A stretch of DNA of 64,000 bases, taken from Dehalococcoidia bacterium (lineage in GTDB: Bacteria; Chloroflexota; Dehalococcoidia; Lucifugimonadales; VXLM01). Made by a program: the position numbers and the translations under genes. Below, one piece after another: positions 3,732-49,562 of this stretch. The notes under the pieces were generated by a model that searched no databases, was not told the origin of the DNA, and saw only the letters and a program-made list of their open reading frames with translations. Positions within the stretch are counted from its first letter, which is position 1; each line of letters begins with the position of its first letter. The stretch covers positions 2,812,423-2,876,422 of the forward strand of contig CBDDPU010000004.1 of assembly GCA_965232435.1 (NCBI GenBank), given 5' to 3'.

Positions 3732-6281
3732 TTACTCGGAGGGAGGAGCTATGAGCTCCAGCCAGATCGTTTCGTGCGGCTGGTCCAACAACTCCGGGTG
3801 GAGAATGCTTACCAAGTCCATCAGAAGGAGGTCGACCCGGTAGTTGACGGCTGTCTTGTAGAAGTCGTCATTACCGGGCTTGAACTTGTGGAACGCATTC
3901 CCGTTGTGCAACGGGTCCAGCTCACCGTAGATCGGTCTGGTACTTACCCACCCGTCCCCATCTGTAAAGTCCAAGTCGGGGAAGACGGCGTTGTGCGAAT
4001 CGTTCAACCAGAAGTCGGAGGCCGCTGCTACTTCCAGCACCACTTCCCCTGATATTGTGGCGGACGCGTCGAGTGCGATGTCCTCATCGAGCAGGATCGG
4101 CGTCCCGCCCGCGTCGCGGATCAGGTGATAGTCGAGGTAATCCGGGCCGCGCGTGAACCACGCGCCGCTGCTGAGGGCCTGGCCGTGCAGCACCGTGCTG
4201 CGTTCAGCGACCGGAACCGCGCTTGCCACTCTCTCCGCCAGCGCAACGTATGCCTCCTCGACCGGAGCGAACAACTCGGTGGCCTTCTTTTCTTTGTTGA
4301 AGAACAGCGACCAGAACTTCAGGTGCTCCGCTGATCCTAGCGGAACCTCCCAGAACGAATTGTAGAACACGGCAGGAAGGCCAAGGGAGCGCGCCGTCTC
4401 ACGCTGGCTGGCGTTGAACGGAACGACCACCATGTCTGGCTCGGCCGCCACCACCGGCTCCCACGCGTCTGCCGCTCCGGTAACCAGGAAGCCGTCGGAT
4501 TGGTACCGCTTGGCCAGTTCCGGCGTGGTCTCGGAGACATCGCCGGACGGAAGGTACCCCAGCCCTATCAGTGACTCCGCTTCGCCCAGGTACTCCAGCG
4601 CCGTCACAACCGATGCGCCGCGGGAGTTCTCGTAGACCCTTTCCACAGGAATCGGGACGATTTGAGTCCCAGCGAGATTGCCGGTGAGCTCCGGCGCCGG
4701 CGTTCCCTTCTGAACGAGCACGTAGGTCTCTCGGGAACCGGCGTTGGCGTCGCCCACAGGGCCCATGTTCACGATCTTGTAGTTGCCGTGATAGGTGACC
4801 GTCCAATCCTCGGCCCATTTTACCTGGACCTTGTCCGGGAAGTAGTCCGTCCCTGCAACATATTCTTCCACCGGGCCCTGGGGATTGCTCGCGATGACTC
4901 CTATCTCGGCGGCCGTTTCGATCCGATCAAGGAACACAAGCTGGTGATTGGGGAGCAGTCCCGGATGGATTATGCTTACGATGTCCTTCAGGAGGATGTC
5001 CGCCCGCACGGCTCCGGTGCTGTGGTAATCGCTCTCACGCCCATATCTGTGGAAGGCGTTGCCCGCGGTCATCGGGGCGAAATCCCCGTTCAGCGGGTTG
5101 CGCTCGAGAAACTCGGGAACAGTCCGCTCACTGGGAATGTAGGCCATGTCGAACCAGTATTCCGCGCCCTGCCCATGTTCGAGCGCCGTCTCCACCGCGA
5201 CTCCTCCAAAGCCCAGGTGAGCCGTACCGTCCAGCAAGCCCTGGTCGACGGCCTTCAGCAAAGGACGAGCCCCACCCGCGTCTTCGATCAGTATTGACTC
5301 GAGCCGGGTGCGATTCCTGCTCTGGAATTGTCCGGACCTTGCGATAGTGCCCAGCAGAACGGAGGGACTTGCCGGCTGGCTTTGGGCAAGGGACTTGACC
5401 ATATTGTACTCTTCGGCAATTGGCTCGAAGTACCGGTTGGCCCTGGCCTCCAGGTTGAAGAACAGCGACACAAACTTCACCTGCTCCGCCGAGCCCAAAG
5501 GGCCCTCGGAGAAGGGAGAGTAGTGAATGGCGGGCACGCCAACTTGGAGCGCGTTGTTCCGCCAGTCGTCGCCGTTGTACTGGAAGTACACGTCAGGGTC
5601 GCCGTTCAGGATCAGTTCCAAGTCATCTCCGTAGCTGGTCTCCTCGAATATGTCATCCTGGGTGACTCGAGCGACCACATCCGGGAGGAAGTGGTTCTTG
5701 TGGCCTGAAGTTCTTGTGTTGACTCCAATCAGCCGGTCCAGAGCGCCGAGCGCGTTCAGCGCCGCGAAGGTGGCGCCGCCGCCTTCCCAGAAGCGCTGAA
5801 CAGGCACCTCGACAGCCAACGCATCTTCAAGCTCGCCGGAAAGTTCCGGCGCCGGCGTCCCGCACTGCACCAGAACGTATCGAATTAGGTTCTGCGCGTC
5901 CGGGCTGGTGTCCGTATCAACTGTTACCACCTTGTAGTTGTTGAAGTACTCGACCTGCCACTCCTTGGCATATTGAGCTTCAGCCTTGTCGGGAAAGTAG
6001 TCGGTCTCCTCCTCGTAGGTATCCGTGCACTTCTGAAGGTTGTTGATGATAAGGTTCTTCACCACAGGCACCTGTACCTCGACCGGCACCTCTTTCTCCA
6101 CCTCCACTACCCGATCTACGGGAACTTCCACAGGTACCTGTACCTCGACCGGCACCTCTTTTATCACTTCCACTGTCCGTTCTACGGGCACCTCAACTTC
6201 CACTACCCTCTCGCCACAGGCCATAAGAATGGCGACGGTCAAGAGGAGTGGCATTAGGATCCCCAAGCTTATCTTTGGCAT
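3732..6281 (-). CDS. tandem-duplicated periplasmic-binding-protein lipoprotein (two iron-siderophore/cobalamin-type PBP modules in one 849-aa chain)
   Basis: Lipobox LMAC after the signal peptide, then a Val/Glu/Pro repeat linker. Two homologous halves: TDYFPDKAEAQYAKEWQVEYFNNYKVV...YVLVQCGTPAPELSG versus TDYFPDKVQVKWAEDWTVTYHGNYKIV...YVLVQKGTPAPELTG, with tails LLKDIVSIIHPGLL versus LLMDLVSILHPELL. AGGAG RBS at 6292-6296. Confidence 0.75.
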   Translation of the reverse strand: MPKISLGILMPLLLTVAILMACGERVVEVEVPVERTVEVIKEVPVEVQVPVEVPVDRVVEVEKEVPVEVQVPVVKNLIINNLQKCTDTYEEETDYFPDKAEAQYAKEWQVEYFNNYKVVTVDTDTSPDAQNLIRYVLVQCGTPAPELSGELEDALAVEVPVQRFWEGGGATFAALNALGALDRLIGVNTRTSGHKNHFLPDVVARVTQDDIFEETSYGDDLELILNGDPDVYFQYNGDDWRNNALQVGVPAIHYSPFSEGPLGSAEQVKFVSLFFNLEARANRYFEPIAEEYNMVKSLAQSQPASPSVLLGTIARSGQFQSRNRTRLESILIEDAGGARPLLKAVDQGLLDGTAHLGFGGVAVETALEHGQGAEYWFDMAYIPSERTVPEFLERNPLNGDFAPMTAGNAFHRYGRESDYHSTGAVRADILLKDIVSIIHPGLLPNHQLVFLDRIETAAEIGVIASNPQGPVEEYVAGTDYFPDKVQVKWAEDWTVTYHGNYKIVNMGPVGDANAGSRETYVLVQKGTPAPELTGNLAGTQIVPIPVERVYENSRGASVVTALEYLGEAESLIGLGYLPSGDVSETTPELAKRYQSDGFLVTGAADAWEPVVAAEPDMVVVPFNASQRETARSLGLPAVFYNSFWEVPLGSAEHLKFWSLFFNKEKKATELFAPVEEAYVALAERVASAVPVAERSTVLHGQALSSGAWFTRGPDYLDYHLIRDAGGTPILLDEDIALDASATISGEVVLEVAAASDFWLNDSHNAVFPDLDFTDGDGWVSTRPIYGELDPLHNGNAFHKFKPGNDDFYKTAVNYRVDLLLMDLVSILHPELLDQPHETIWLELIAPPSE
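6062..6193 (-). repeat. 2 x 66-bp tandem direct repeat inside the binding-protein gene (22-aa EVPVEVQVPVEVPV-type linker units)
   Basis: 6062-6127 and 6128-6193 align base for base at roughly 85% identity (ccacagg[c/t]acctgtacctcgaccggcacctctt...). Confidence 0.9.
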
Positions 6282-6339: not shown

Positions 6340-6470
6340 AAGAGATGATTAGCACCAGAAATATAGAACAGCACAGTATAAACTATTGGGGTGAGTGCTG
6401 ACAACTCCAGAGACATATTTGATATGATATCTCAATACATACGCCGATTAGACCTCGCAGTAGGGCGTGA

Positions 6471-6555
6471 GTGAATCTGGCGGCGGAGTACTGCGATCAC
6501 ATCGTCATGTTGCAGAATGGTCGCGTCCAAGCGGCTGGACATCCCAGCGGAAAGT
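6471..6555 (+). pseudogene. 3'-terminal remnant of a FepC/FecE-type ABC ATPase
   Basis: Translates to NLAAEYCDHIVMLQNGRVQAAGHPS, the conserved segment that follows the H-loop in siderophore-type ATPases. An in-frame TGA (6468-6470) lies directly upstream, so the Walker A/B parts are absent. Confidence 0.45.
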
Positions 6556-6572
6556 TCGCTATACAGTCCGCT

Positions 6573-6764
6573 CTATCCCACCCATTTGTATCTGAGACTT
6601 ACGGAGACTCGAACTCCCAAAAGCCCCGAGTAGACATCCGACGCCAGGCCCTGTGGTACGCACCCCGTCAATTGGTTCTTCCGCAGACGCCACCGTTCGA
6701 GGTTGCTGAGTCCGCCTAGCTCGCTCGGAATCGTCCCAGTCCGTTGGTTGCTGTTGAGCCAATG
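6573..6764 (-). pseudogene. leucine-rich-repeat (plant-type LRR) protein fragment
   Basis: Minus-strand frame, translated codon by codon: HWLNSNQRTGTIPSELGGLSNLERWRLRKNQLTGCVPQGL... An in-frame TAG lies directly upstream (6765-6767), there is no start codon, and the stop is at 6573-6575. Confidence 0.45.
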
Positions 6765-7005
6765 CTAGGACATTACGTCTTGCACTTCTGGCTTGAACCC
6801 GCGGTCGTGAACCGCTTCCTGCTGTAGACAGAACTTTCGAGCTTCTGATCCAGTTGTAGAGTATGGGCGACTCCGGTCGATATTCCCAGCGTCCGTGTTC
6901 GCCGGGAGCTACGGCAACTATCCGGGATAAGTGCGTCCGGAGCCAGCACAGTGACTCTATCAGCGGAAGAATGCCTGAGGCGCCGCGAGGAACTGCAAGC
7001 CGTCT

Positions 7006-7464
7006 ATGTGCGTTGCATGGGGGGTCCCGGAGCGTTGCGATCTTGCGCCCACACTTGTCCGCGAGGAGCGGACCGACGAGTTCTTGGCGCAGTGGGTACG
7101 TTTCTCTGGCGAACCGGGCGAGCGTGTACCGGGGTTATTCGTTAGGCCCTTACGCTCCGCCGGCCGACTCCCCGTAATCATCGTGCTACCAGGAGGTCAC
7201 CGTACAAAGGATTTTGCGCTTTTCGGTCACGAGCAGTGGCCCTTACCCTTCGATCTCAAGACGGTGGCCCAAGCGACGAACCGAATTTTGGTGCTGCGCA
7301 ACGGCCGGGTAGTCGAGCAGGGTGGCATAGTCGAGACCATGTCGAGACCAAGCCATCCATACACTTCCCAGCTTGTCTCCGCGTTTGACGACGCACGACG
7401 CGGCACAGGAGAAGAGTTCCGCCCATCCAACGGTACTCTCCCACGCTTGCAATACGAGGACTGA
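7006..7464 (+). pseudogene. chimeric remnant: esterase-like N-terminal segment joined to the C-terminal tail of a Dpp/Opp-type ABC ATPase
   Basis: VRFSGEPGERVPGLFVRPLRSAGRLPVIIVLPGGHRTKD (alpha/beta-hydrolase-like) is followed in frame by TNRILVLRNGRVVEQGGIVETMSRPSHPYTSQLVSAF (ABC C-terminus with the HPYT motif). In-frame stops at 6928, 6952 and 6976 lie just upstream. Confidence 0.4.
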
Positions 7465-7559
7465 CGGCTGGCTATGGCCGCCAAAGGCACGCGACCCGCG
7501 TCGTCGATGGCGTTGACATAGACGTTCATCCCGGAGAGTGCGTCGCCCTGATTGGCCGC

Positions 7560-7961
7560 GTGCGGCTGCCTCCATCTCTTTTGTCGCGATTCCCGCGCGA
7601 GCCCTCTGGGGGCGAGCGCCAGCGCGTCGCTATCGCTCGAGCCCTTGCTGCCGAACCGCAAGTCCTCGTCTGCGATGAAGTGACTTCGGCATTGGATGTG
7701 GAAGTAGAGGCCTCGGTTCTGGATCTGATCGACGAACTCAGGAAGGATAGAGGGATGGCGGTACTGCTCATCACTCGCAACCTGTGAGTGGTCCGCCGAA
7801 TCGCTGACAGGGCTGTCGTCCTGCACGACGGCGGCATTTGCGAACACGGGTCTGTCGCGAGAGTATTCGATGCGCCGGAGCATGAGTTTACGCGCTCGAT
7901 CCTGAAGGTCGATCTACCCGTATCCGATATCTTGCGCCGACGGCTGAAGACCGGAGCGTAG
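7560..7961 (+). pseudogene. Dpp/Opp-type ABC ATPase lacking its Walker-A half and interrupted by an in-frame TGA
   Basis: [32 protein letters not shown]...[10 protein letters not shown][TGA 7785-7787]VVRRIADRAVVLHDGGICEHGSVARVFDAPEHEFTRSIL. The H-loop region reads ITRNL-stop where the intact paralog at 19300-20322 has IAHDLS. Confidence 0.6.
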
Positions 7962-8155
7962 GTGGGTTTCTACGTTAGGTTCCTAAGATGCGTATTGTCC
8001 CACCTGACAGGCGACCGCAACAACAGCAACCAAGGTTACGTTTGGTCGAGCTATTCGTCAGCCAGCTTCGCGTTGATTCGGCTAAAGTAGAATCTCCCAC
8101 CGAACTCCGCCGTTGAGAGCGATCTCAGCGCCTCCCGCCTGCCCCTCCCACCCCC

Positions 8156-8182
8156 GTCATTCCGGCGCAGGCCGGAATCCAG
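8156..8182 (+). repeat. 27-nt hairpin repeat, GTCATTCC family
   Basis: gtcattccggcgcaggccggaatccag, with 7-bp stem ttccggc/gccggaa and loop gcag. Identical to 10908-10934. Confidence 0.9.
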
Positions 8183-8206
8183 ACCCCCACCGTCGCAAAA
8201 GAATCC

Positions 8207-8237
8207 TTGCAATTTCGGGGGGGGGGGGGGGTAGATT
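8207..8237 (+). promoter_or_regulatory. sigma70-like promoter TTGCAA-N19-TAGATT whose spacer contains the G15 tract
   Basis: ttgcaa 8207-8212, spacer tttc+G15 8213-8231, tagatt 8232-8237. It lies 50 nt upstream of the TTG start of the lectin-like gene. Confidence 0.45.
8217..8231 (+). repeat. G15 homopolymeric tract
   Basis: 15 consecutive G counted directly (8217-8231). Confidence 0.95.
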
Positions 8238-8286
8238 ATTAGAGCTTGTGAGAAACCCCCAAAATAGCGGATGAAAGGCAGATGAA

Positions 8287-10713
8287 TTGGAAATTCCATG
8301 TTCGATCCGGCAGTTAATCCTAGTTGGCATCGTTGCTCTAGTCCTCTCCACATTGTCCATCTCGCCTACGACATCCGCTCATGCGGACTCGCCCGACGAC
8401 TTCGACGGCCAGACCCTCTACGTCTGGCACGAGACCGATGAATCCGAAGGCTGCCTGGACGTCAAGCACGGCGACCGTTCCGACGGGCAGGACGTCTGGA
8501 CTTGGGAATGCAACAAGACCGACGCCCAGAAGTGGATTTTCGAAAAGCGTACCGCAGGCGACTACAAGGGCAGCTACCGCCTGGTTAGCGCCCTAGGCAG
8601 CGACACCCATTGCCTGGACAACCGCGGCGACTTCACCACCGGTGACCGCATGGGCATCTGGAGCTGCGTCAGCGACACCCACGGTGCGGCTCCCAACCAG
8701 TCGGTGACCATCGCCGCATCCGGCGACGGCTACACCATAACCTTCGTGCGCAACAGCGACAGCAAGAGCGTCTGGCTGGTGACCGACCGGGCCTCGAACA
8801 ACCCGAAGGGCGGCGCCAACCAGACCACCGTGACCGACACCGTCCCCGACTCGGCGGTGTGGGTAATCAGCGCCACGGCCCCCGACGAGACGCCCAACAT
8901 CGTGCTGCCCAACCTAGTGCTGGCCAACAATAGCGACGACGATGATGACGACGATATCCAGCCCGAGAATGTCGACACCGACACCGACCCGTACGACGGC
9001 AAGACGTTCTTCCTGAGGCACCCGAGTGGCAGCGCCGTGGACTGCCTGGAGGTAGCCAGCTCAGCCCCAACCACCCCACTTGAGACCGGCGACTGCGACT
9101 ACGACGAGAACGAGGAATGGACCTTCCAAAAGCGCACCTCGGGTGAATGGGCGGGCTCCTACAGGATGGTTTACAAGCCGACCATTGGCACCAATAGGGT
9201 GCTCTGCGCCGTCATGAGCGCCGATTACACGAGCATCGACACGAATATAAAGCTCGGCCGTTGCAGAGGCGACAACGACGGCAGGGCGGACTACCAGACG
9301 TTCACGGTAGAGAGTGTGGCCGGCGGCTACGCCATCCGGTTCGCCACCGATCACCCCTATATGCATTTCTATTACACGCGGCTAGGGGTGACCAAAGACG
9401 ACGACAACAACGACGACGTTGCTACCATCCCAGCCGGCACCGCCCGCAACGGGATCGTCGCCCCGACCGCTGCGGTGACCTGGGAGCTGCTGCAAGGGGA
9501 GCCCGCCGAAGACTTTGACGACCAGATTGTGCAGATATACCAGGTGGATGGCACCTCCACGGCCTGCCTCTCGGCGACTCCGCGAAAAAGCAACTACTCA
9601 AGCTTGATATGGGTCGAAGAGGATCTGGTTAATGTCGCCGCGTGCAGCGACAGCCCCTTCCAGTTCTGGCGGTTGGAGAAGATGACGGGCGGCGCCTACC
9701 TGATACGCTCCATGGCTGCCAATCAGGTGAATTGCCTTGACAACCACAGCCACTTCGAGACCAACTCCGCCCTGAAGGCCGGGCGCTGCGCGGTCAATTC
9801 CAACTACACAGCGTCTGTCAACACCGACAGCTACCACTACTACAACCCGGTGGTGGACCAGTCGGTGACCATCACCGCCGAGGGCACCGGCTACACTCTG
9901 AAGTTCGACAATGGCACCAAGAGCTCTTGGATCACCACCGACCGGGCTGCCGGCAGTACTAGCGGGAGCGCAGAGCAGACGACAGTCGTAGACACCGTGC
10001 CTGACTCGGCGGTCTGGGGCATCGGGACGGTTGCTGACCGCATAGCCCTGAGGACCAACCCCACCTTGGTGAAACCCGTGGACCCGTACCACGGCAAGAC
10101 ATTCAGGATCAAATCACGCTACAAGGCGGGGGGAACCGGCGGCTGGATAGCTTCATGCCTGCACCCGGGGGGAAGCAAAGTCCCTAACAACAAAGCCGGT
10201 GACTACCTCATCATCGCCGGTGCAGGTGGCCCCTGCCACAGTCACAACACGGGCGTCTATAATGGCTACGAAAGCTTGGCCTCTTGGACGATCGAGAGGC
10301 GCGCATCCGGCGACTATGCAGGCTACTACCGGTTTGTAAGCCAGGCCGGCAATAAGGACATTTGCCTGGACGCCGACGTTGCCAACACCATTGACGGCGG
10401 CCTGGAGTTCACCACCACCCTCAGCACAGCGAAGACTGGCATCCACGTCGACACCTGCGTCGGCGACGACCATGCCGAAGTGGCGAGCCAGTCGGTGAAG
10501 ATAACCGTGCACAACGACGGCAATGGCGCATGGGGCAAGGACTCCTACACCTTGACCTTCGTCGAAGACACCAGCGATGACGCCAAAGAGGTATGGCTCT
10601 CGGCGATAAACTGGATCGGCCGTGTCGGCCAGCGTGTGGTGACCGACGAGGTGCACGACATGGCCATCTTCTACCTGGAGGAGCAGGTGCACGCCGTCCC
10701 CGATCGCCCGTAG
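8287..10713 (+). CDS. secreted protein with four tandem ricin-B-like (beta-trefoil, QxW) lectin modules and a poly-Asp linker
   Basis: TTG start and signal peptide ending ...SPTTSAHA. Four ~190-aa homologous modules: FDGQTLYVW..QKWIFEKRTAGDYKGSYRLVS..CLDN; YDGKTFFLR..EEWTFQKRTSGEWAGSYRMVY; FDDQIVQIY..FQFWRLEKMTGGAYLIRS..CLDN; YHGKTFRIK..ASWTIERRASGDYAGYYRFVS..CLDA. A D7 run lies between modules 1 and 2. Confidence 0.6.
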   Translation: MEIPCSIRQLILVGIVALVLSTLSISPTTSAHADSPDDFDGQTLYVWHETDESEGCLDVKHGDRSDGQDVWTWECNKTDAQKWIFEKRTAGDYKGSYRLVSALGSDTHCLDNRGDFTTGDRMGIWSCVSDTHGAAPNQSVTIAASGDGYTITFVRNSDSKSVWLVTDRASNNPKGGANQTTVTDTVPDSAVWVISATAPDETPNIVLPNLVLANNSDDDDDDDIQPENVDTDTDPYDGKTFFLRHPSGSAVDCLEVASSAPTTPLETGDCDYDENEEWTFQKRTSGEWAGSYRMVYKPTIGTNRVLCAVMSADYTSIDTNIKLGRCRGDNDGRADYQTFTVESVAGGYAIRFATDHPYMHFYYTRLGVTKDDDNNDDVATIPAGTARNGIVAPTAAVTWELLQGEPAEDFDDQIVQIYQVDGTSTACLSATPRKSNYSSLIWVEEDLVNVAACSDSPFQFWRLEKMTGGAYLIRSMAANQVNCLDNHSHFETNSALKAGRCAVNSNYTASVNTDSYHYYNPVVDQSVTITAEGTGYTLKFDNGTKSSWITTDRAAGSTSGSAEQTTVVDTVPDSAVWGIGTVADRIALRTNPTLVKPVDPYHGKTFRIKSRYKAGGTGGWIASCLHPGGSKVPNNKAGDYLIIAGAGGPCHSHNTGVYNGYESLASWTIERRASGDYAGYYRFVSQAGNKDICLDADVANTIDGGLEFTTTLSTAKTGIHVDTCVGDDHAEVASQSVKITVHNDGNGAWGKDSYTLTFVEDTSDDAKEVWLSAINWIGRVGQRVVTDEVHDMAIFYLEEQVHAVPDRP

Positions 10714-10728
10714 CCCAAGTAAATCCCC

Positions 10729-10755
10729 CAGGGGCAGGCGGGAGGCCTGCCCCTG
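10729..10755 (+). terminator. GC-rich stem-loop 16 nt after the lectin-gene stop (no U-tract)
   Basis: caggggcaggc-gggag-gcctgcccctg: perfect 11-bp stem with a 5-nt loop. Confidence 0.35.
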
Positions 10756-10769
10756 CGAATCCGCAATCC

Positions 10770-10832
10770 CCGTTCGTGGTGAGCCTGTCGAACCATGAAC
10801 CCTTCACTCTTCGACAAGCTCAGGGCGAACGG
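10770..10832 (+). repeat. second dispersed repeat family (ccgttcgtggtgagcc... and ...gctcagggcgaacgg units)
   Basis: ccgttcgtggtgagcc (10770-10785) recurs exactly at 37255-37270. gctcagggcgaacgg (10818-10832) recurs at 11002-11016. Confidence 0.8.
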
Positions 10833-10907
10833 GGCCCCCTCGCGCTAGACCAACCCTCTCCCCGCCCCTCTCCCGCGAACGGGAGAGGGGCCCAGCCCCA
10901 TCCAACC

Positions 10908-10934
10908 GTCATTCCGGCGCAGGCCGGAATCCAG
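10908..10934 (+). repeat. 27-nt hairpin repeat, GTCATTCC family
   Basis: gtcattccggcgcaggccggaatccag, identical to 8156-8182 and in the same orientation. Confidence 0.9.
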
Positions 10935-11317
10935 TCGCATCCCCTCTCCCGTCATGGGAGAGTGCATATGCATCACCCTCCGGCAGCCTCAGGAGAGCCA
11001 AGCTCAGGGCGAACGGGGGGCTCTGACGGATTTTGGGAGACGAGATGAGGGATTGCGAGTACTGTTTTTCCGGGAGTTCTTCTTCGGATTTTGGGACGTT
11101 TTCGGACATTCCCGCTTGTTTGGGCAGTCGGTGATCAGTTTTAAACTACCCCTCGCTCCCGCATCGGGTACGGGGCCTGCCCCATACTCGATACGGGGAA
11201 GACTCTCTCCCAGTACGGGGATTTATTGGATTGGCGCGTATGAATAGAATGGCACATGTGCACTATGACCTCATTTCGGGACGGGAATAGTTGCCTTGTC
11301 CCGGTCCGCAAGTGACC

Positions 11318-11346
11318 TTGAACACGCTGATGAGATGGGATAACAT
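11318..11346 (+). promoter_or_regulatory. sigma70-like promoter TTGAAC-N17-TAACAT upstream of the SMT gene
   Basis: ttgaac 11318-11323, 17-nt spacer, taacat 11341-11346. Confidence 0.35.
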
Positions 11347-11407
11347 TGGGTAACGCTTGCGCGGGTACCCCGGTACCGCTTCTCCGGCTAATAACAGGAC
11401 CGCATTA

Positions 11408-12460
11408 GTGAAAGATCTCCTCCAACTCCGCAAACTGTCCAAGGGCCTAAAGACCTCGTACCACGGATCGGACGTCAACCGTCGAGTGAAAACGTTCGAT
11501 GGATGGCTGGACAGAGCGCCGGACGGCGGGAAAGATGACTCGGCCGGCTACGACCACGCCGAAACCGTCAAGGAATACTACGACCTTTGCACTGATTTCA
11601 TGGTGTTCGGCTGGAGCGAATCTCTCCACTTCGCGCCGCTGTCGCCCATGGAGAGCCTGGAAGAATCTCAGACTCGGCATCAGCGACTGATGATCTCCAA
11701 GCTGGAACTGCAAGAGGGCATGACGGTGATTGATGTCGGATGTGGGATCGGCGGCCCGCTTCGCCGCGTCGTCCGGGAGGCCGGCGTCAAGGCCGTCGGC
11801 GTAAACACCAACGAAATCCAACTGAGCAAGGCGAGATCGTTGGACGCCGAGGCGGGAATCGAGGACATGGTGGACTACCTCACATGCAGCTTCATGAATA
11901 TGGACACCCTCGCAGACGATACCTTCGACCGCGGCTACGCCATCGAATCGACCTGCCATGCGCCGGACAAAGTGGGCGCGTTCGCCGAGATCTACCGCGT
12001 GCTGAAACCGGGAGCGCTGTTTTGGGGTCAGGAAATGTGCATGACCGACAAGTTCAATCCCGATGACCCTCGGCACCGGGACGCCAAGCGGGACCTGATG
12101 CAAGGCATCGCGCTCAAGGAGATCGCAACCATGGGCGAGGTGAACCGAGCCCTCGAAACGGCCGGATTCGAGGTCATCGAGGGGAGGGACAGGGCCGTCG
12201 AAGGAAACGGTTCGACCACTCCGTGGTTTCAGCCGATGGAAACCCGGCGAGGAACGCTTGGCAGCGCCATGCGGAGGATTCCGCTGGGCCGCAAGCTCCT
12301 CATCGGGGGATCGAGGGTGGCCGAAGCGCTGAGGGTGTTCCCGAAGGGTTCCGCGGACGTCATTGAACTGATGGACCGTACCGCCAACGCCTACGTCGCA
12401 GGCGGCAGGACCGGGATATTCACACCGCTATACTGTTTCCTAGCCCGCAAACCCCTTTAA
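11408..12460 (+). CDS. sterol 24-C-methyltransferase family protein (Erg6/SMT-like SAM-dependent methyltransferase)
   Basis: Matches remembered Erg6 blocks. YYDLCTDFMVFGWSESLHF versus YYNVVTDFYEYGWGSSFHF. IDVGCGIGGP versus LDVGCGVGGP. YAIESTCHAP versus YAIEATCHAP. YRVLKPGA versus YKVLKPGG. C-terminal GGRTGIFTPLYCFLARKP versus GGKSKLFTPMMLFVARKP. A GTG start at 11408 is preferred because AGGA lies 9 nt upstream and the promoter is at 11318-11346; the maximal ORF starts with TTG at 11357. Confidence 0.8.
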   Translation: MKDLLQLRKLSKGLKTSYHGSDVNRRVKTFDGWLDRAPDGGKDDSAGYDHAETVKEYYDLCTDFMVFGWSESLHFAPLSPMESLEESQTRHQRLMISKLELQEGMTVIDVGCGIGGPLRRVVREAGVKAVGVNTNEIQLSKARSLDAEAGIEDMVDYLTCSFMNMDTLADDTFDRGYAIESTCHAPDKVGAFAEIYRVLKPGALFWGQEMCMTDKFNPDDPRHRDAKRDLMQGIALKEIATMGEVNRALETAGFEVIEGRDRAVEGNGSTTPWFQPMETRRGTLGSAMRRIPLGRKLLIGGSRVAEALRVFPKGSADVIELMDRTANAYVAGGRTGIFTPLYCFLARKPL

Positions 12461-16374: not shown

Positions 16375-19179
16375 CTAAGCCCTCTCGCGATCCAGATTAA
16401 GGGCGAGGAGGCGGGCGATCATTTCGCCGTCGGTTAGGTCGGGGGGCCAGCCGTAGGCGGCAGAGACGGCCTCGTCGAGGTTCTTGCACGCCAGGTCAAG
16501 CCACGTGGGGCGGGCGTTGTAGAGGTTCGTCAGGGTGCGGCGTTTAAGTTCGCTTGGACTCACGGCATCCTCCGCCGGGTTCAGCCAGCCCTGGCGGAGG
16601 GAGTCGAGGCGTTGGGCGGCGTCCGCTATAGCCGCTTGCTGATCGGGCGATGGGCGTGGGAAGGGGAAGGTCTCGAAGGTTGTCGTGGGCGTGTATCGGA
16701 ACCCGGATTCGACCTCACGGAGTTGAGTGCCCTGAGACCGCGCCCAGAGTTCATGCGGCCGGGAATGGAGCACCCCGAAGAAATAGTCGTCGTCGCGGGC
16801 AAAGGCTATGACTACGTTGGCGGCAAGAGTATTGTTCTGCGCCCACACAAACATCCTATGTTTTGATAAGTTGGGAGTGACAATGAAACGGCCCAGCCCC
16901 TGTATCGCGGCGCGCATTCCGGGTCGTGGCTCCATGTGGAGCCACCAGTTCTTGGCATATGCCTCTCGCTTGCTCTTGCTGCGAAACGGTTTGACGTTCT
17001 CACGGACGTACTCGAAAGGCGCTTCGTAGAGCGCGGCTTCTTCCAACGTCGTCCCCGGCGGAAAGTCGATAATCCACATATTCCGACGGCGTCCCGTGAT
17101 GTCCGACCCGTTGATCCACGGACGCACCACGTCTCTATTCGAGCGACCGTCGGGGTTTGGCTGGGCGAGAAGCCGCTTGGCCAGCGCGTCGTCAATGTCG
17201 AAGGGGCCTCCCTTCGTATCTCCCATGAAGGCGATTCCGAGATTTTCCTTCAGCCTTCCGGCCTTCGTTACGTCAGTATCGCCGGAGGTCAGGTTGGCGT
17301 ATATATCGGAAACTTGGAGGCCGTCCAGTTCGCGGGCCGTTTCCCGCCCGTCGTCGAATCCGACCATCGACACCTGCACGGCGGCGCCGTCGAGCGTCCA
17401 CACACGGTCGGACTGCGCCCAGAATATGCCGCCCGACTGCGCTATGCGGTTGAGGACGTCGCGGTTTCTCCCGCCGCGAATGCCCTGGGTGGCAAGCAGG
17501 CCCGCGCGTTCCGCCCGTCCCGATTCGACTTGCTCCCTAGCCTTCTCGAACCAATAGCAGCAAAGGTCGGCCTCGCGAGGGACGCGATCATTCCACACAT
17601 CGAACATTGCATCGACGTATTCGTCTCCCAACTCCTGGCGAAGCAGCTTGCCACCAAGAAACGGCGGATTGCCGACGATGACCTCCGCGACCGGCCATTC
17701 GGGCTCGGTCAACGCGCCGGTCTTGTCTCGCCCAACAATGGCGTCCATCCGCGCGATGTTCTCGAGAGGTTCGAGGATAGGCGATTCGCTTTCGAGATCG
17801 AAGGCGTTGCGATACTTCCATTGGAGGTATCCGATCCACACGACGGCGGACGCGAGCTCCTGCGCGTACTCGTTGGTCTCTATGCCCCAAAGCTGCCGGG
17901 GATGTACGCCGGGGGTCAGACCCGCGACGCCGTACTGCTCTCCGAAAGCGATGACTTCCTTTTCCAGCGCCTTGAGCAGCGTCAGACTGACGTACAGGAA
18001 GTTTCCCGAACCGCAGGCCGGATCGAGGACTCGGATCGTGGCGAGTCGCCCAAGGAACCGCGAAAGTATCTCGGTGAGCTGGGATTTGAGGAACTCACTG
18101 TCGTATTCGGGTTGGACCTGCCAGTCGATGTATTTCTCCGCCTTCGCCTTCTCTCGTTCCCACGCCTGCCGCAGCGGACTCATCAAGACAGGTTCGACGA
18201 TAAGCTCGATGTCCTCTCGCGACGTGTAGTGCGTTCCGAGCTGCCTGCGCTTGCTCTCGTCGATGATCCGCTCGAACAGCGTGCCGAAAATCGAAGGTTC
18301 GATATCCGACCAGTCCAGGTCGTTCAGTTTTTCGAGCAGGGCGATCTGGTCTGCGATCAGCTCGGGAACGGAGGTGTCGTCGAAGAGTCCGCCGTTGAAG
18401 TGCGGCACGTCCCGCATGAGGAACCGCCCGCCGTCCTTCATAGCGGCGAAGAGCTCGCCCGTGTACTTCTGAAAGTCATCGGGCCTGGTCCTGTTGACCC
18501 TTATCAGATTGGTAAATGCCTCTTGATCCAGGAGACCAACGTCGCTTGCGAAGAAGCAGAAGATCATGCGCATGATGAAGTGCGCGATTTCCTGCTCGCT
18601 GATGGGACTCTTGCTCTTTGCGTTCCACGTCCGCATGTCGTCCGCGAGGACGCGAAGCAGTTCCGCCGCCTCCTCGGTGAGCTTGGACTGGAGTTTGCCG
18701 GGATTGAGGCGTTCCGGGTCTTCGAACAGCGCTCGAAGTATTTGGAGGGGCGTGAGTCCCGAATCGTCTACCGGGTTGTCGGTTGATAGATCGGCGTTCG
18801 AGAACTCGTACTTGCGCTTTACGGTGTTGGTGAAGTTGGTATGGACCTGAAACGTGTTGAGGTCGCATACGACTAGCAGAGGGGGATTGCCGAGGGCCTC
18901 ACGATAGAGTTGAAGCTGCTGGTACGCCGCCGACAGGTCTTTGTTCGGCCCCTTGTATTCCCAGCCGAAGCAGTCTTTTCGCCAGACGTCGGCGAAGCCC
19001 TTGCCGCCGGTAGACTTGTCGAGGCCCTTTTCGAACGTGAACCAGTCGCCCTTCGGGTCTGCCTCCACGGGCGTTTGCTGGCCGGCCAGCCGGCAGATGT
19101 CAATGAAGTGCTCCTGAGCGCCTGCGCGCTCTCGAAGCTCCACTGTCGCCCATTTATTTACGTACTCAATCGGATTCAT
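16375..19179 (-). CDS. MmeI-family Type IIL restriction-modification enzyme (fused nuclease / N6-adenine DNA methyltransferase / specificity domain)
   Basis: N-terminal D-X9-E-X-K nuclease motif (ADVWRKDCFGWEYK, compare MmeI VDLFWPGILLIEMK). GTHYTS, SAM motif LDPACGSGNFL and catalytic motif VGNPPF. C-terminal LTNLYNARP...LDEAVSAAYGW resembles the MmeI tail. The ATG at 19179 (MNPIEYVNKW) is preferred; the maximal ORF starts at 19245. Confidence 0.8.
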   Translation of the reverse strand: MNPIEYVNKWATVELRERAGAQEHFIDICRLAGQQTPVEADPKGDWFTFEKGLDKSTGGKGFADVWRKDCFGWEYKGPNKDLSAAYQQLQLYREALGNPPLLVVCDLNTFQVHTNFTNTVKRKYEFSNADLSTDNPVDDSGLTPLQILRALFEDPERLNPGKLQSKLTEEAAELLRVLADDMRTWNAKSKSPISEQEIAHFIMRMIFCFFASDVGLLDQEAFTNLIRVNRTRPDDFQKYTGELFAAMKDGGRFLMRDVPHFNGGLFDDTSVPELIADQIALLEKLNDLDWSDIEPSIFGTLFERIIDESKRRQLGTHYTSREDIELIVEPVLMSPLRQAWEREKAKAEKYIDWQVQPEYDSEFLKSQLTEILSRFLGRLATIRVLDPACGSGNFLYVSLTLLKALEKEVIAFGEQYGVAGLTPGVHPRQLWGIETNEYAQELASAVVWIGYLQWKYRNAFDLESESPILEPLENIARMDAIVGRDKTGALTEPEWPVAEVIVGNPPFLGGKLLRQELGDEYVDAMFDVWNDRVPREADLCCYWFEKAREQVESGRAERAGLLATQGIRGGRNRDVLNRIAQSGGIFWAQSDRVWTLDGAAVQVSMVGFDDGRETARELDGLQVSDIYANLTSGDTDVTKAGRLKENLGIAFMGDTKGGPFDIDDALAKRLLAQPNPDGRSNRDVVRPWINGSDITGRRRNMWIIDFPPGTTLEEAALYEAPFEYVRENVKPFRSKSKREAYAKNWWLHMEPRPGMRAAIQGLGRFIVTPNLSKHRMFVWAQNNTLAANVVIAFARDDDYFFGVLHSRPHELWARSQGTQLREVESGFRYTPTTTFETFPFPRPSPDQQAAIADAAQRLDSLRQGWLNPAEDAVSPSELKRRTLTNLYNARPTWLDLACKNLDEAVSAAYGWPPDLTDGEMIARLLALNLDRERA

Positions 19180-19299
19180 GCTGTACCCATGGTGCAAGTT
19201 TCGCCAAGAGGTGAATCGCAATGGCGGTAAGTAATATTCCGCCAAGGGGTTCCATTCGGATATGCCACCAAGATAAGTTGGGAGAAGGCTTTAGCCCAA

Positions 19300-27406: not shown

Positions 27407-27564
27407 GCGCTAGACACCCACGACCGGAAGTTGATCCTAAAAATGATAGACCGTTCCGCACTCACGGTAAAGCCGCGATCTTGGAGAATTCCGCATACCT
27501 CATTGGCAAGCCAAACAACTCGCGAGGCATGGGCTGAATCAAGGCTGTGCCAGACCTCACCGGG

Positions 27565-27586
27565 TTCCGGCGCTCGCGGGAATGAC
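27565..27586 (-). repeat. GTCATTCC-family hairpin repeat (reverse orientation, imperfect)
   Basis: The plus strand reads ttccggcgctcgcgggaatgac; the reverse complement is gtcattcccgcgagcgccggaa. Confidence 0.7.
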
Positions 27587-27730
27587 GGTTTAGCAAGGTG
27601 TCTTTTCACGGGAACCGATAGCCACCGAGACGTGGGGAATCCAAGTGGAGAGCACTCATATCGAGTAGACTGGAGAGTTCGTGTCGGTATTGGTGATTGT
27701 CTTGAAGGTTTGCGTATGCTATAGTCGATT

Positions 27731-31933: not shown

Positions 31934-33814
31934 TTAGTGGTGCTCCGGCGATTCTTCCGGCTCGTTAACCGGTTCCAACGCCCACGCCACGATGCCCACC
32001 ATAGTGATCGCTCCGCCGATGATCGCTAAGACCGGGACGCTCGTAATTCCTGCGATCTCGAAGGTAAACAGCAGGCCATAGGCCCCGATGAACAGGCCGA
32101 TGGACGTTACTAGCGGCCAATACGACGGTTGCGGCAGGTGAATATCGTGCCCGTTGTGCTCGTCCTCCGAGCTCCCCGCCACCGGCACGGCGGGAATTCG
32201 CTCGCGCTTTTGGGCCCACCATGCGTCGCGGTCGAACACTTGGGGGATCTGCACAAAGTTGTAGTGCGGCGGCGGTGAAGAAATCGACCACTCGAGAGTC
32301 CGTCCGTCCCATGGATCGGCGCTTGCCTTCTCACCGTTCCTGGCGCTCTTAATGTAGTTCACGATAAAGATCAGTATCCCGAAGGCCAGGACAAAGGAAC
32401 CGATGGTGGAGAGCATGTTCATGACATCCCATCCCATGTTCTCCGGATACGTGAACACTCGACGGGGCATCCCGTCCATGCCGACGAAGTGCATCGGGAA
32501 GAACGCGAGGTTCATGCCGATAAACATCACCCAGAAATTGAGCTTGCCCAGTCGCTCATCCATGAATCGACCGTATATTTTGGGGAACCAGTAGTAGATG
32601 CCCGCGAACAGCGCGAAAATCGCGCCGCCGAACAGTACGTAGTGAATGTGCGCGACGATGAAGTAGGTGTCCTGCTGCTGGGCGTCCGAAGCCGCCGACG
32701 AGTGCATAACCCCGCTCAGGCCGCCCACGATGAACAGCGCGATGAATCCCACTGAAAACAGCATGGGGGTCTTGAAGTCGATCGAACCGCCCCACATCGT
32801 CCCGATCCAGTTGAATATCTTCACGCCGGTGGGCACCGCGATCGCCATTGTCGTTATTGCGAAGACCGAGTTGGCCACCGGCCCCAAGCCGACTGTGAAC
32901 ATATGGTGGCTCCACACCATCCAGCCCATGAACCCGATGATGATCCCGGACAGCACGATGACGGGGTAGCCGAACAGCGGCTTTTTCGAGAAGGTCGGCA
33001 GTATCTCCGAGACAATCCCCATCGCCGGAAGGATGAGGATGTAAACCTCCGGATGGCCGAAGATCCAAAACAGATGCTGCCAAAGCAGGGGGTTCGCTCC
33101 GGCGCTCGTGACGAAGAAATTCGTCCCGTAGAAACGGTCGAAGAGAAGTTCGATGAGCGCCACCGTGATAACTGGGAACGCCAGAATCAGCAGGAATGCC
33201 GTCACCAGGGTCATCCAGGTAAACAACGGCATTCGCATCAGAGACATGCCAGGGGCGCGCATGTTCAGTATCGTCACGATGAAGTTGAACGCCGCCGCCA
33301 GCGAGGCGATGCCGAGCACCTGCAAGCTAAGAATCCAGAAGTCGATGCCGTGTCCGGGGTTGTATTCAATGCCCGTGATCGGAGAGTAACCGAACCATCC
33401 GGCGTTCGGAGAACCGCCCATGAACCAGCTAAACTTGAGGATCAGCGCCCCGGCCAGGAATGTCCAGTAGCTGAAGGCGTTCAGACGCGGGAAGGCCACG
33501 TCGCGCGCGCCGATCTGCAGCGGAATGATGTAATTGAAGAACGCCGCCCCCATCGGCATCACGCCGAGGAAGATCATGGTTGTGGCGTGCATCGTGAACA
33601 GTTGGTTGTACACCTCGGGGCTTACCAGGTCGGCTTCCGGCGTGGCAAGCTGGGCGCGGATGTACAGCGCCTCGATGCCTCCGGTCAAGAACATGATGAA
33701 GGCCGTAACGCCGTACAAAATACCGATCTTCTTGTGATCGATCGTCGTTATCCAGTCCCAAATCCCCGTCGGGTGAGACGGACGTTTCGGCAGAGGTATC
33801 GCAAGCATAGTCAT
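31934..33814 (-). CDS. ctaD: cytochrome c oxidase subunit I
   Basis: DHKKIGILYG, WFFGHPEVYILILP-type (WIFGHPEVYILILPAMG) and HHMFTVG motifs. 626 aa. Confidence 0.95.
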   Translation of the reverse strand: MTMLAIPLPKRPSHPTGIWDWITTIDHKKIGILYGVTAFIMFLTGGIEALYIRAQLATPEADLVSPEVYNQLFTMHATTMIFLGVMPMGAAFFNYIIPLQIGARDVAFPRLNAFSYWTFLAGALILKFSWFMGGSPNAGWFGYSPITGIEYNPGHGIDFWILSLQVLGIASLAAAFNFIVTILNMRAPGMSLMRMPLFTWMTLVTAFLLILAFPVITVALIELLFDRFYGTNFFVTSAGANPLLWQHLFWIFGHPEVYILILPAMGIVSEILPTFSKKPLFGYPVIVLSGIIIGFMGWMVWSHHMFTVGLGPVANSVFAITTMAIAVPTGVKIFNWIGTMWGGSIDFKTPMLFSVGFIALFIVGGLSGVMHSSAASDAQQQDTYFIVAHIHYVLFGGAIFALFAGIYYWFPKIYGRFMDERLGKLNFWVMFIGMNLAFFPMHFVGMDGMPRRVFTYPENMGWDVMNMLSTIGSFVLAFGILIFIVNYIKSARNGEKASADPWDGRTLEWSISSPPPHYNFVQIPQVFDRDAWWAQKRERIPAVPVAGSSEDEHNGHDIHLPQPSYWPLVTSIGLFIGAYGLLFTFEIAGITSVPVLAIIGGAITMVGIVAWALEPVNEPEESPEHH

Positions 33815-34913: not shown

Positions 34914-35121
34914 TGTGTTGGCTGTCTTCTCCTACCGCCCGATATCGGACAAAGCCCAAGCTAGGGACAATCTATCAAAGGGCTGATATGCAGTCAAGGG
35001 ATTCTCCGAACCGGTGGTTGTTTTGTCTCGGTGAGATGCACAATTCGCTCCCCGTGGATGCACACCCCGCACCGGCGCGAGTAATGACGAAAGAGGGGCG
35101 CCAAAAGCTGCTGCTCCGTCA

Positions 35122-37020: not shown

Positions 37021-37049
37021 AATCTAGCACAGCCCCTATGCCCGGTCAA
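37021..37049 (-). promoter_or_regulatory. sigma70-like promoter TTGACC-N17-TAGATT for the ctaA-led cox operon
   Basis: Minus strand: ttgacc (37049-37044), 17-nt spacer, tagatt (37026-37021). It lies ~60 nt upstream of the ctaA ATG at 36959. Confidence 0.45.
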
Positions 37050-37254: not shown

Positions 37255-37313
37255 CCGTTCGTGGTGAGCCGGTCTAGCCAGCCCCTCATCATCATTCCCG
37301 CGAACGCGGGAAG
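37255..37313 (+). repeat. composite repeat: ccgttcgtggtgagcc unit plus GTCATTCC-family hairpin
   Basis: 37255-37270 is identical to 10770-10785. 37292-37313 reads tcattcccgcgaacgcgggaag, with palindromic arms ttcccgcg/cgcgggaa. Confidence 0.85.
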
Positions 37314-37362
37314 CCGGCAATCACTTCTCAGTATGGTATCGATATGCCGAAACCGTCCTTGC

Positions 37363-41744: not shown

Positions 41745-42167
41745 CCTGGGTTATCTCCCTCTGGGGATTGTAGCACGATTTCCCTCTTTCTCCGGCCCGC
41801 GGGAGTTTTCCAACGTCTGCGGATCTCGTCGAGGCGATGCACGTATGAGAAACCGCTCGCGTCTCCGGTACGTAGTAGGGTGTGACCCCCTTCTCGAAAG
41901 GCGGTGTCCGGCCAAGGTGATGGGAGTGGAGGATTGACCGGACACCGTCTTTCTTGTGTCCGATCGAATGAGACGGATTCCCCCGGCGTTCAGCGCGGGC
42001 AACCGTGCGTCACATCAGGGAGACCCACTCACAAAGTCTCGCTCGATCATTCCCGCGCACGGAGACGCACGGAGATTCTTGCATAGCTCATTTGCAAGCT
42101 AGGGAAAGTCGCGATATCGCGGACTATGGGCGGAAACGAAGGCGGCTGAACCTTACTGGATTCTCGG

Positions 42168-49507: not shown

Positions 49508-49562
49508 CGGTCGCGATAGGGTCGTTCCAGCTGCTGCGCCGGTTTGGAGGACAAGGATTTTC

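What the first reader, a model, noticed from the sequence alone, without database searches (positions are those of the whole stretch)
8207..8237. G15 tract forms the -35/-10 spacer of the lectin-gene promoter: candidate phase-variable switch
Read directly from the sequence: TTGCAA (8207-8212), tttc plus 15 G (8213-8231), then TAGATT (8232-8237). This lies 50 nt upstream of the TTG start of the secreted lectin-like gene. The spacer is 19 nt, and loss of two G would give the optimal 17 nt. Homopolymer tracts in promoter spacers are the classic slipped-strand mechanism for on/off or volume control of surface proteins, as in Neisseria porA/opc. TAGATT/TAGAAT also recurs as the apparent -10 at other promoters in this window, which supports the hexamer assignment.
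Basis: partly seen in the sequence, partly recalled or inferred. Interest (0 to 1): 0.65.

Follow-up and report, generated by a model that had tools for sequence, protein, structure and literature searches.

The report
Poly-G tract inside a lectin-gene promoter
A run of 15 G sits between the two recognition boxes of the likely promoter of a secreted lectin gene in an uncultured, probably sponge-associated Chloroflexota bacterium, which is the layout of a known slippage-driven expression switch, but no data here show that its length varies.

Summary
TTGCAA (8207-8212), tttc plus G15 (8213-8231) and TAGATT (8232-8237) lie 50 nt before the TTG start of an 808-aa ricin-type lectin with a signal peptide.

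G15 is not chance. It is the only homopolymer longer than 7 nt in 64 kb, about 0.002 runs of 15 or more are expected, and runs of 7 or more are depleted overall.

The promoter reading holds up in silico:
- TTGNNN-N17-TANNNT is enriched in intergenic DNA (9 of 15, p=2e-4).
- TTGACT-17-TAGATT and TTGACC-17-TAGATT precede coxB and ctaA.
- AGAATCC directly before the -35 box occurs only at the lectin and coxB promoters.
- A G15 dropped at a random intergenic position would be bracketed this way 0.3% of the time.

The host is a Dehalococcoidia/SAR202-like bacterium on a 3.07 Mb contig. A two-colour poly-G artefact is therefore unlikely, although the exact count of 15 is uncertain.

The lectin belongs to a mosaic, multi-copy family, as contingency genes often do.

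Three things are missing: tract-length variation, a mapped transcription start and expression data. No reads or orthologous DNA could be retrieved.

Verdict: a credible candidate and a new member of the porA/fetA/tp0126 kind, in a lineage for which my literature searches found no such switch.

The parts
8154..8182 (.). REP-like hairpin repeat (ATTCCGGC-GCAG-GCCGGAAT core) upstream of the promoter. An identical copy lies at 10906-10934, downstream of the lectin gene.
   Evidence: family D6, both copies 100% identical; sequence read
8200..8206 (+). AGAATCC motif directly upstream of the -35 box, shared with the coxB promoter
   Evidence: AGAATCC(N0-2)TTG occurs only twice in 64 kb, here and at 34995-35005 on the minus strand (expected 0.30; 3 of 100 shuffles reach 2)
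8207..8212 (+). -35-like hexamer TTGCAA (4 of 6 matches to TTGACA)
8213..8231 (+). 19-nt spacer, tttc plus the G15 tract at 8217-8231. G13 would give the 17-nt spacing seen at the other promoters in the window.
8232..8237 (+). -10-like hexamer TAGATT, preceded by GGG, so the TGn extended -10 motif seen at coxB and ctaA is absent
8243..8245 (+). Predicted transcription start, about 6-8 nt after the -10 box. Inferred only, not mapped. It would give a 5' UTR of about 43 nt without the G tract.
   Evidence: inference from sigma-70 promoter geometry; fold of 8244-8320
8274..8278 (+). Shine-Dalgarno-like AAAGG, 8 nt before the TTG start
   Evidence: read from the sequence
8287..10713 (+). 808-aa secreted lectin built of tandem ricin-type beta-trefoil modules. 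The in-frame stop at 8272-8274 keeps the G tract out of the coding region.
34969..34997 (-). Comparator promoter TTGACT-17-(TGa)TAGATT, 55 nt before the coxB start at 34913
37021..37049 (-). Comparator promoter TTGACC-17-(TGc)TAGATT, 61 nt before the ctaA start at 36959

Best explanation
The G15 tract fills most of the spacer of the sigma-70-type promoter of the lectin gene, TTGCAA-N19-TAGATT. The proposed mechanism is that slipped-strand mispairing during replication adds or removes G residues and so changes the distance and rotation between the -35 and -10 boxes.

G13 would give a 17-nt spacer and should be the most active state. G12 and G14 should be intermediate. The assembled G15 (19 nt) should be low or off. 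This promoter has a weak -35 box and lacks the TGn extended -10 motif of its TAGATT siblings, so it should depend strongly on spacing.

The result would be heritable but reversible cell-to-cell variation in how much of a secreted, host-glycan-binding lectin is made.

Shown here:
- the tract and its flanks;
- the non-randomness of the tract;
- use of the same boxes at 17-nt spacing elsewhere in the window;
- the nature of the gene.

Inferred:
- the transcription start;
- hypermutability, from the known behaviour of poly-G tracts of about 8 nt or more in Neisseria and Treponema;
- the effect of tract length on expression;
- any selective value.
For: - G15 is the only homopolymer longer than 7 nt in the window; 0.0018 runs of 15 or more are expected and shorter runs are depleted. 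No other simple repeat of contingency type is present.
- TTGNNN-N17-TANNNT is enriched in intergenic DNA, 9 of 15 sites against 16.9% of bases (p=2e-4). The N19 version is not enriched, 4 of 13 (p=0.16).
- TAGATT occurs 6 times, 5 of them intergenic. It forms TTGAC-17-TAGATT promoters 55 and 61 nt before coxB and ctaA, compared with 49 nt for the lectin.
- AGAATCC directly before the -35 box is found only at the lectin and coxB promoters.
- TTGCAA-19-TAGATT is the top plus-strand promoter candidate in 7930-8300.
- A G15 inserted at a random intergenic position is bracketed by TTGNNN and TANNNT in 0.29% of cases.
- The tract cannot be coding, because an in-frame stop lies at 8272-8274.
- The gene is a secreted ricin-type lectin. 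It belongs to a multi-copy mosaic family: paralogue P0010 on the same contig is about 97% identical over the first 200 aa or so and far more divergent beyond that (51% over the whole alignment), other genomes carry similar pairs, and some members look frameshifted.
- The context fits a symbiont. The closest COX1 relatives include a sponge-derived Chloroflexi bin, and ankyrin and NHL repeat proteins lie nearby.
- Experimentally proven precedents exist for the same architecture: porA, fetA and tp0126 (PMC5320596, PMC7864442).
Against: - There is only one sequence. No reads and no orthologous or paralogous promoter DNA were available, so length variation is unobserved.
- The hexamers match the consensus at only 8 of 12 positions. 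The stock promoter scan, limited to 16-18 nt spacers, finds nothing in this region.
- The assembled allele has the spacing that is not enriched among intergenic sites, so the majority state may be off, or the promoter may lie elsewhere.
- A TAGAAT box at 8088 could start a longer transcript that carries the tract in its 5' UTR.
- The region upstream is pseudogene debris, so a neutrally expanded tract in decaying DNA cannot be excluded.
- My literature searches returned no report of phase variation by simple repeats in Chloroflexota or in sponge symbionts.
- Homopolymer length calls from long reads are imprecise, especially with amplified low-input libraries, which at least one sponge-metagenome project of this kind used (PMC12398682).
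Confidence: 0.5

Rival explanations
1. The tract is real and probably unstable, but it is not a switch. It would be a neutral slippage expansion in a G-rich stretch of decaying intergenic DNA. The lectin gene would be transcribed from another promoter or with the help of an activator, so tract length would have little effect on expression.
For: The upstream 1.5 kb holds ABC ATPase fragments in several frames. The -35 box is weak, TTGCAA, and the total match is 8 of 12. The 19-nt spacing is not enriched in intergenic DNA. Other spacers in the window are also G-rich, for example gggcataggggctgtgc at ctaA.
Against: Being bracketed by the two boxes is improbable by chance (0.29%). The flanks copy the coxB promoter, AGAATCC..TTG and TAGATT. 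No better promoter exists in the intergenic region. Homopolymers are otherwise depleted in the window. The lectin ORF is intact and conserved.
Confidence: 0.25
2. The tract works as a structure rather than as a spacer ruler. G15 is exactly the minimum for a three-tetrad G-quadruplex (GGG-G-GGG-G-GGG-G-GGG). It could act in the non-template DNA strand. Alternatively, if transcription starts upstream, for example from TAGAAT at 8088, it could act in a roughly 190-nt 5' UTR, where it could also pair with the C-rich run at 8128-8156.
For: With G-quadruplexes allowed, the predicted fold of 8200-8320 improves from -31.7 to -58.9 kcal/mol and uses the tract as a quadruplex. Without quadruplexes, the tract pairs with the upstream C-rich run in the fold of 8100-8320. 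TTCGCG-15-TAGAAT at 8067-8093 ties with the proposed promoter at 8 of 12.
Against: The upstream candidate has a poor -35 box and a 15-nt spacer. Nothing in Rfam matches the region. This reading does not explain why the flanks reproduce the -35 and -10 context of the coxB promoter. A structural role would also change with tract length, so it overlaps the main explanation.
Confidence: 0.1
3. The tract is a sequencing or assembly artefact, such as a two-colour-chemistry poly-G, a chimeric junction or a gross homopolymer miscall.
For: Poly-G is the classic no-signal artefact of two-colour Illumina chemistry. The count of 15 may be off by a base or two in long-read consensus, especially with amplified low-input libraries (PMC12398682).
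Against: The tract lies inside a window from a 3,071,145-bp contig, which implies a long-read assembly. The closest relatives in the genome collection are MAGs with contigs of 0.5-4 Mb. Artefactual poly-G sits at read or contig ends and is not bracketed by promoter boxes. Composition is continuous on both sides of the tract and there are no N bases.
Confidence: 0.05

Closest known systems
Neisseria meningitidis porA promoter (poly-G between the -35 and -10 boxes; van der Ende et al. 1995, as cited in PMC5320596 and PMC7864442)
   Same: A poly-G tract lies in the spacer of a sigma-70-type promoter of a gene whose product leaves the cytoplasm. In porA, expression falls when the spacer departs from 17 nt.
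   Different: Variation and its effect on expression are proven by experiment for porA and not here. Here the organism is an uncultured Chloroflexota bacterium, the product is a secreted lectin rather than a porin, the tract is G15, and the assembled state is two bases too long rather than optimal.
Neisseria gonorrhoeae fetA (frpB) promoter (poly-C of 10-14 in the spacer; Carson et al. 2000, as cited in PMC5320596)
   Same: A G:C homopolymer of similar length (10-14 against 15) lies between the -10 and -35 boxes, and fetA tract lengths differ between strains.
   Different: The fetA tract is written as poly-C on the coding strand and the gene encodes an iron-regulated outer-membrane receptor.
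Treponema pallidum tp0126 and the tprE/G/J/L promoters (PMC7864442)
   Same: In tp0126 a poly-G tract lies between the -35 and -10 boxes and expression is best at a 17-nt spacer. The tpr genes are a paralogous family encoding putative outer-membrane proteins, and several of them carry promoter poly-G tracts. Here too the gene belongs to a mosaic family with conserved 5' ends. T. pallidum is also a host-restricted organism, studied through rabbit infection and a heterologous E. coli reporter.
   Different: The Treponema tracts are shorter, 7-11 G, and are documented to vary in vivo. It is not known here whether the paralogues also carry a tract.
Neisseria meningitidis opc promoter (poly-C)
   Same: A homopolymer in the promoter gives graded control of transcription of a surface protein gene.
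   Different: The opc tract overlaps the -35 region and probably acts through a regulator (PMC7864442).
G-quadruplex-forming promoter elements
   Same: G15 satisfies the minimal G3-N1-G3-N1-G3-N1-G3 pattern, and a quadruplex is predicted when the tract is single-stranded.
   Different: Known functional bacterial quadruplex motifs, from my own knowledge, are mixed sequences rather than pure homopolymers. No evidence for formation was obtained here.

Membership tests
Transcriptional phase variation by a homopolymer in the -35/-10 spacer (porA, fetA, tp0126 type) | A homopolymeric tract long enough to be hypermutable (about 8 nt or more) | tested here: met
   G15 at 8217-8231; the only run longer than 7 nt in 64 kb; 0.0018 expected
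Transcriptional phase variation by a homopolymer in the -35/-10 spacer (porA, fetA, tp0126 type) | The tract lies between the functional -35 and -10 elements of the promoter that drives the gene | tested here: inconclusive
   In silico the evidence is in favour: it is the best candidate in the intergenic region, its -10 box is identical to those of coxB and ctaA, it shares the AGAATCC context, and chance bracketing is 0.29%. No transcription start is mapped, the match is 8 of 12, and the stock scan finds nothing.
Transcriptional phase variation by a homopolymer in the -35/-10 spacer (porA, fetA, tp0126 type) | Tract length varies reversibly within and between populations | not testable with these tools
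   No reads were available. All attempts to fetch the same or related loci failed.
Transcriptional phase variation by a homopolymer in the -35/-10 spacer (porA, fetA, tp0126 type) | Expression changes with tract length, with an optimum at a 17-nt spacer | not testable with these tools
   Indirect only: 17 nt is the spacing enriched in intergenic DNA of this window and 19 nt is not.
Transcriptional phase variation by a homopolymer in the -35/-10 spacer (porA, fetA, tp0126 type) | The controlled gene encodes a surface or secreted host-interaction product, often from a variable family | tested here: met
   Ricin-type lectin with a signal peptide and a mosaic multi-copy family
Translational (frameshift) phase variation | The repeat lies inside the reading frame | tested here: not met
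   An in-frame stop at 8272-8274 separates the tract from the ORF. The gene itself has no run of 7 or more.
Two-colour-chemistry poly-G artefact | Poly-G at a read or contig end in a short-read assembly, with unrelated flanks | tested here: not met
   The tract is internal to the window, the source contig is 3,071,145 bp, composition is continuous on both sides, and the flanks form a coherent promoter.
G-quadruplex promoter or 5' UTR element | Four G-runs of 3 or more with short loops, and formation in vivo | tested here: inconclusive
   The sequence pattern is met and a quadruplex is predicted for the single strand. Formation in vivo cannot be tested here.

The most novel reading that the evidence does not exclude
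An uncultured, probably sponge-associated Chloroflexota (Dehalococcoidia/SAR202-like) symbiont uses a hypermutable poly-G promoter spacer as a true contingency locus. The locus would switch a secreted, mosaic ricin-type lectin on and off. This would extend phase variation by simple repeats from pathogens to a symbiont in a phylum where my literature searches found no report of it. If paralogues with the same 5' module carry their own tracts, the population could display combinations of host-glycan-binding proteins.
Probability: 0.35. Interest if true: 0.7.

Novelty: new member of a known kind. Interest (0 to 1): 0.45.

Why it matters
If tract length does vary and sets lectin expression, a symbiont, probably of sponges, would be diversifying its host-facing proteins by the same stochastic switch that mucosal pathogens use. 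Sponge symbionts are rich in eukaryote-like proteins such as ankyrin, NHL, LRR and lectin domains, and little is known about how these are regulated. A promoter-borne simple repeat would be a regulatory handle that can be read directly from metagenomic reads. It would also make homopolymer-length heterogeneity in long-read metagenomes worth mining rather than polishing away. The claim is cheap to test if the reads behind the source assembly are public, as they are for comparable sponge-metagenome projects (PMC12398682).

Tried and rejected
- **Exact-protein look-ups.** I searched for contigs encoding the lectin, its paralogue, six homologues and two neighbouring genes. All 11 look-ups returned nothing.
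- **Related loci.** The lectin alignment A1 found no relative in genome contigs, metagenome contigs or viral contigs.
- **Exact DNA pattern.** A pattern of the promoter flanks with a variable gap found no match in metagenome contigs.
- **Spurious ORFs.** I looked for ORFs reading through the tract (poly-Gly or poly-Pro) in the protein collection, as a proxy for related promoters. None is on record.
- **Relatives' cox loci.** The TTGAC-N18-TAGATT pattern gave no match in the 80 fetched COX1 loci, whose 1-kb flanks stop short of the coxB promoter.
- **Known RNA families and tRNAs.** Neither was found anywhere in the window.
- **Stock promoter scan.** It found nothing in 7000-11500 because it allows only 16-18 nt spacers.
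- **Translational phase variation.** Rejected because of the in-frame stop at 8272-8274.
- **Tract as part of the REP-like element.** Rejected because the other copies have no G run.
- **Literature.** Searches for phase variation in sponge symbionts or Chloroflexota, and for Dehalococcoides promoter mapping, returned nothing relevant.

Full report
**1. The observation**

The sequence reads exactly as described. TTGCAA is at 8207-8212, tttc at 8213-8216, fifteen G at 8217-8231 and TAGATT at 8232-8237. The spacer is 19 nt, and the -10-like box ends 50 nt before the TTG at 8287.

That TTG opens an 808-aa ORF, 8287..10713. An in-frame stop at 8272-8274 closes the frame just upstream. The tract is therefore non-coding, and a frameshift type of switch is excluded.

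The tract is far from chance.
- It is the only homopolymer longer than 7 nt in the 64 kb.
- About 0.0018 runs of 15 or more are expected from base composition.
- Runs of 7 or more are depleted in this DNA, 5 observed against 22 expected.
- Tandem Repeats Finder lists no other repeat of contingency type in the window.

**2. The gene and the organism**

The ORF matches RicinB_lectin_2 (E=4.6e-16) and Ricin_B_lectin (E=2.2e-14). Internal alignments show several tandem beta-trefoil-like modules.

Its N-terminus reads as a Sec signal peptide, with an Arg-containing n-region, the hydrophobic core LILVGIVALVLSTLSI and an AHA|D cleavage motif. Eight homologues at 64-80% identity begin at the same aligned position, which supports the TTG start.

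The protein collection places the gene on a contig of 3,071,145 bp.

The COX1 gene of the window (31934-33814, minus strand) is most similar, at 64-78% identity, to Dehalococcoidia, Chloroflexota and SAR202 MAGs. These include a sponge-derived bin and several MAGs with contigs of 0.5-4 Mb. The window also encodes a 744-aa ankyrin-repeat protein and two tandem NHL-repeat proteins, which are eukaryote-like proteins typical of sponge symbionts. The source is therefore most likely a sponge-associated Chloroflexota genome assembled from long reads. This is an inference, because the record itself could not be retrieved.

**3. Is it a promoter?**

The stock scan, limited to 16-18 nt spacers, finds nothing in 7000-11500. 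I therefore asked what promoters look like in this window.

- *Spacing.* TTGNNN-N17-TANNNT occurs 15 times, and 9 of these lie fully in the 16.9% of the window that is intergenic (binomial p=2e-4). The same boxes at N19 are not enriched, 4 of 13 (p=0.16). The organism therefore appears to use sigma-70-type promoters with a 17-nt optimum.
- *The -10 box.* TAGATT occurs six times, five of them intergenic. TTGACT-17-TAGATT lies 55 nt before coxB, and TTGACC-17-TAGATT lies 61 nt before ctaA. The corresponding distance for the lectin is 49 nt.
- *The -35 context.* The heptamer AGAATCC directly before the -35 box occurs in the window only at the lectin and coxB promoters (expected 0.30).
- *Rank.* Within 7930-8300, TTGCAA-19-TAGATT is the top plus-strand candidate. 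It ties at 8 of 12 with a poorer TTCGCG-15-TAGAAT at 8067-8093.
- *Chance bracketing.* If a G15 is inserted at every intergenic position in turn, it ends up wholly inside a TTGNNN...TANNNT spacer of 21 nt or less in 0.29% of cases.
- *Extended -10.* Three of the other TAGATT sites carry the TGn motif. The lectin site has GGG instead. It has a weak -35 box and no TG, so it should depend on correct spacing more than its siblings do.

None of its 11 copies pairs with a TTG box at a plausible spacing.

**4. Mechanism**

The best-supported reading is the classic one. The tract is the spacer, slippage changes its length, and spacing sets promoter strength. G13 would give 17 nt and should be optimal. 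The assembled G15 gives 19 nt and should be weak or off.

Only the anatomy is shown here. Hypermutability of a 15-G run, the start site near 8244 and the dependence of expression on length are inferred from established behaviour in three proven systems:
- porA, with poly-G in the spacer;
- fetA, with poly-C of 10-14 in the spacer that differs between strains (PMC5320596);
- T. pallidum tp0126 and tprL, where poly-G varies in vivo and tp0126 expression is best at a 17-nt spacer (PMC7864442).

**5. Supporting context**

The lectin belongs to a multi-copy, mosaic family. Paralogue P0010 on the same 3.07 Mb contig is about 97% identical over the first 200 residues or so. It diverges sharply beyond that, and identity over the whole alignment is 51%.

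In related genomes, pairs on the same contigs share the first 400 residues or so and differ in the C-terminal half (P0003/P0004, P0063/P0008, P0064/P0067, P0065/P0066). P0014 and P0018 look frameshifted or truncated. Conserved 5' modules combined with variable 3' parts is the pattern of the tpr and opa families.

Whether the paralogue's promoter carries its own tract is the most informative open question.

**6. Rivals**

- *Neutral expansion in decaying DNA (0.25).* The 1.5 kb upstream consists of ABC ATPase fragments, and the hexamers are only 8 of 12. The coxB-like flanks and the low chance of such bracketing argue against this.
- *A structural role (0.10).* G15 is the minimal three-tetrad quadruplex. 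It is predicted to fold as one, or to pair with the C-rich run at 8128-8156, if it is transcribed from an upstream start. No known RNA family matches the region.
- *Artefact (0.05).* The tract is internal to a megabase contig, composition is continuous on both sides, and there are no N bases. A two-colour poly-G artefact does not fit. However, the exact count of 15 could be off by a base or two. At least one sponge-metagenome project of this kind used amplified low-input HiFi libraries assembled with metaMDBG (PMC12398682).

**7. What could not be done**

No reads were available, and no DNA of the same or related loci could be retrieved. Eleven exact-protein look-ups, three related-locus scans and one DNA-pattern scan all came back empty. 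A look-up of spurious ORFs reading through the tract also found nothing. Length variation, the feature that defines a phase-variable locus, therefore remains untested.

**8. Verdict**

The switch itself is plausible but unproven.

It is a new member of a known kind, in a phylum and lifestyle for which my literature searches found no report of such a switch.

My confidence that tract length modulates lectin transcription is about 0.5. My confidence that it is a selected contingency locus is about 0.35. Interest is moderate (0.45). The mechanism would not surprise a specialist, but the setting would, and the test is straightforward if the raw reads of the source assembly are public.

Noticed in passing
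window 11357-12460 (+): A gene with a sterol methyltransferase C-terminal domain (Sterol_MT_C E=2.3e-15) plus CMAS and SAM-methyltransferase domains lies directly downstream of the lectin. A bacterial sterol-methyltransferase-like gene in a probable sponge symbiont bears on the debate over sponge sterol biomarkers.
   Followed up: no
window 8154-8182 and 10906-10934; diverged copies at 27559-27590 (-), 37289-37317 and 42155-42247: A REP-like hairpin repeat, CCGTCATTCCGGCGCAGGCCGGAATCCAG. Two 100% identical direct copies bracket the lectin gene together with its promoter, 2752 nt apart. Other palindromic repeats, such as CCCTCTCCCGCGAACGGGAGAGGG at about 10868-10891, fill the 640-nt region downstream.
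   Followed up: partly
window 6440-7961 (+): Several fragments of ABC-transporter ATPase genes lie in different frames (the tail of ABC_tran at 7560-7787, an oligo_HPY piece in 7006-7464). This is pseudogene debris between the periplasmic-binding-protein gene and the lectin promoter.
   Followed up: partly
lectin family proteins P0010, P0003/P0004, P0063/P0008, P0064/P0067, P0065/P0066, P0014, P0018: The family is mosaic. Paralogues in one genome share near-identical N-terminal parts (about 200-400 aa) and differ in the C-terminal modules, and two members look frameshifted or truncated. This suggests gene conversion or segmental recombination among lectin genes.
   Followed up: partly
window 61694-63928 (-); 58188-59243 (-) and 59250-60305 (-): A 744-aa ankyrin-repeat protein, and two tandem NHL-repeat (beta-propeller) paralogues about 75% identical at the DNA level. 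These are eukaryote-like proteins typical of sponge symbionts.
   Followed up: partly
window 34969-34977 (-), 37021-37029 (-), 52554-52562 (-): A recurrent extended -10 motif, TGnTAGATT: 3 copies against 0.77 expected. The copy at 52554-52562 has no -35 box and lies in one arm of a 39-nt inverted repeat (49543-49581 / 52539-52577) that flanks the RNase J gene and a gene encoding a protein with a prepilin-type N-terminal methylation motif.
   Followed up: partly
window 8271-8285 (+): A four-codon upstream ORF, ATG AAA GGC AGA TGA, ends one base before the TTG start of the lectin gene. This might allow translational coupling to the weak start codon.
   Followed up: no
window 8128-8156 (+): A C-rich run, cgcctcccgcctgcccctcccaccccc, lies 60-90 nt upstream of G15. 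It is predicted to pair with the tract if the two are transcribed together, enclosing the REP hairpin.
   Followed up: partly
window 16375-19245 (-): A 956-aa MmeI-like type IIL restriction-modification enzyme, with all four MmeI domains.
   Followed up: no
window 3732-6281 (-): An 849-aa protein with two periplasmic-binding-protein (Peripla_BP_2) halves from an internal duplication (repeats at 4675 and 5830). Its N-terminal region has a repetitive VPVEV-type stretch encoded by a 66-nt tandem repeat at 6062-6193.
   Followed up: no
whole window: Homopolymer runs of 7 nt or more are about four-fold depleted relative to base composition, 5 observed against 22 expected. This makes the single G15 stand out further.
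   Followed up: yes
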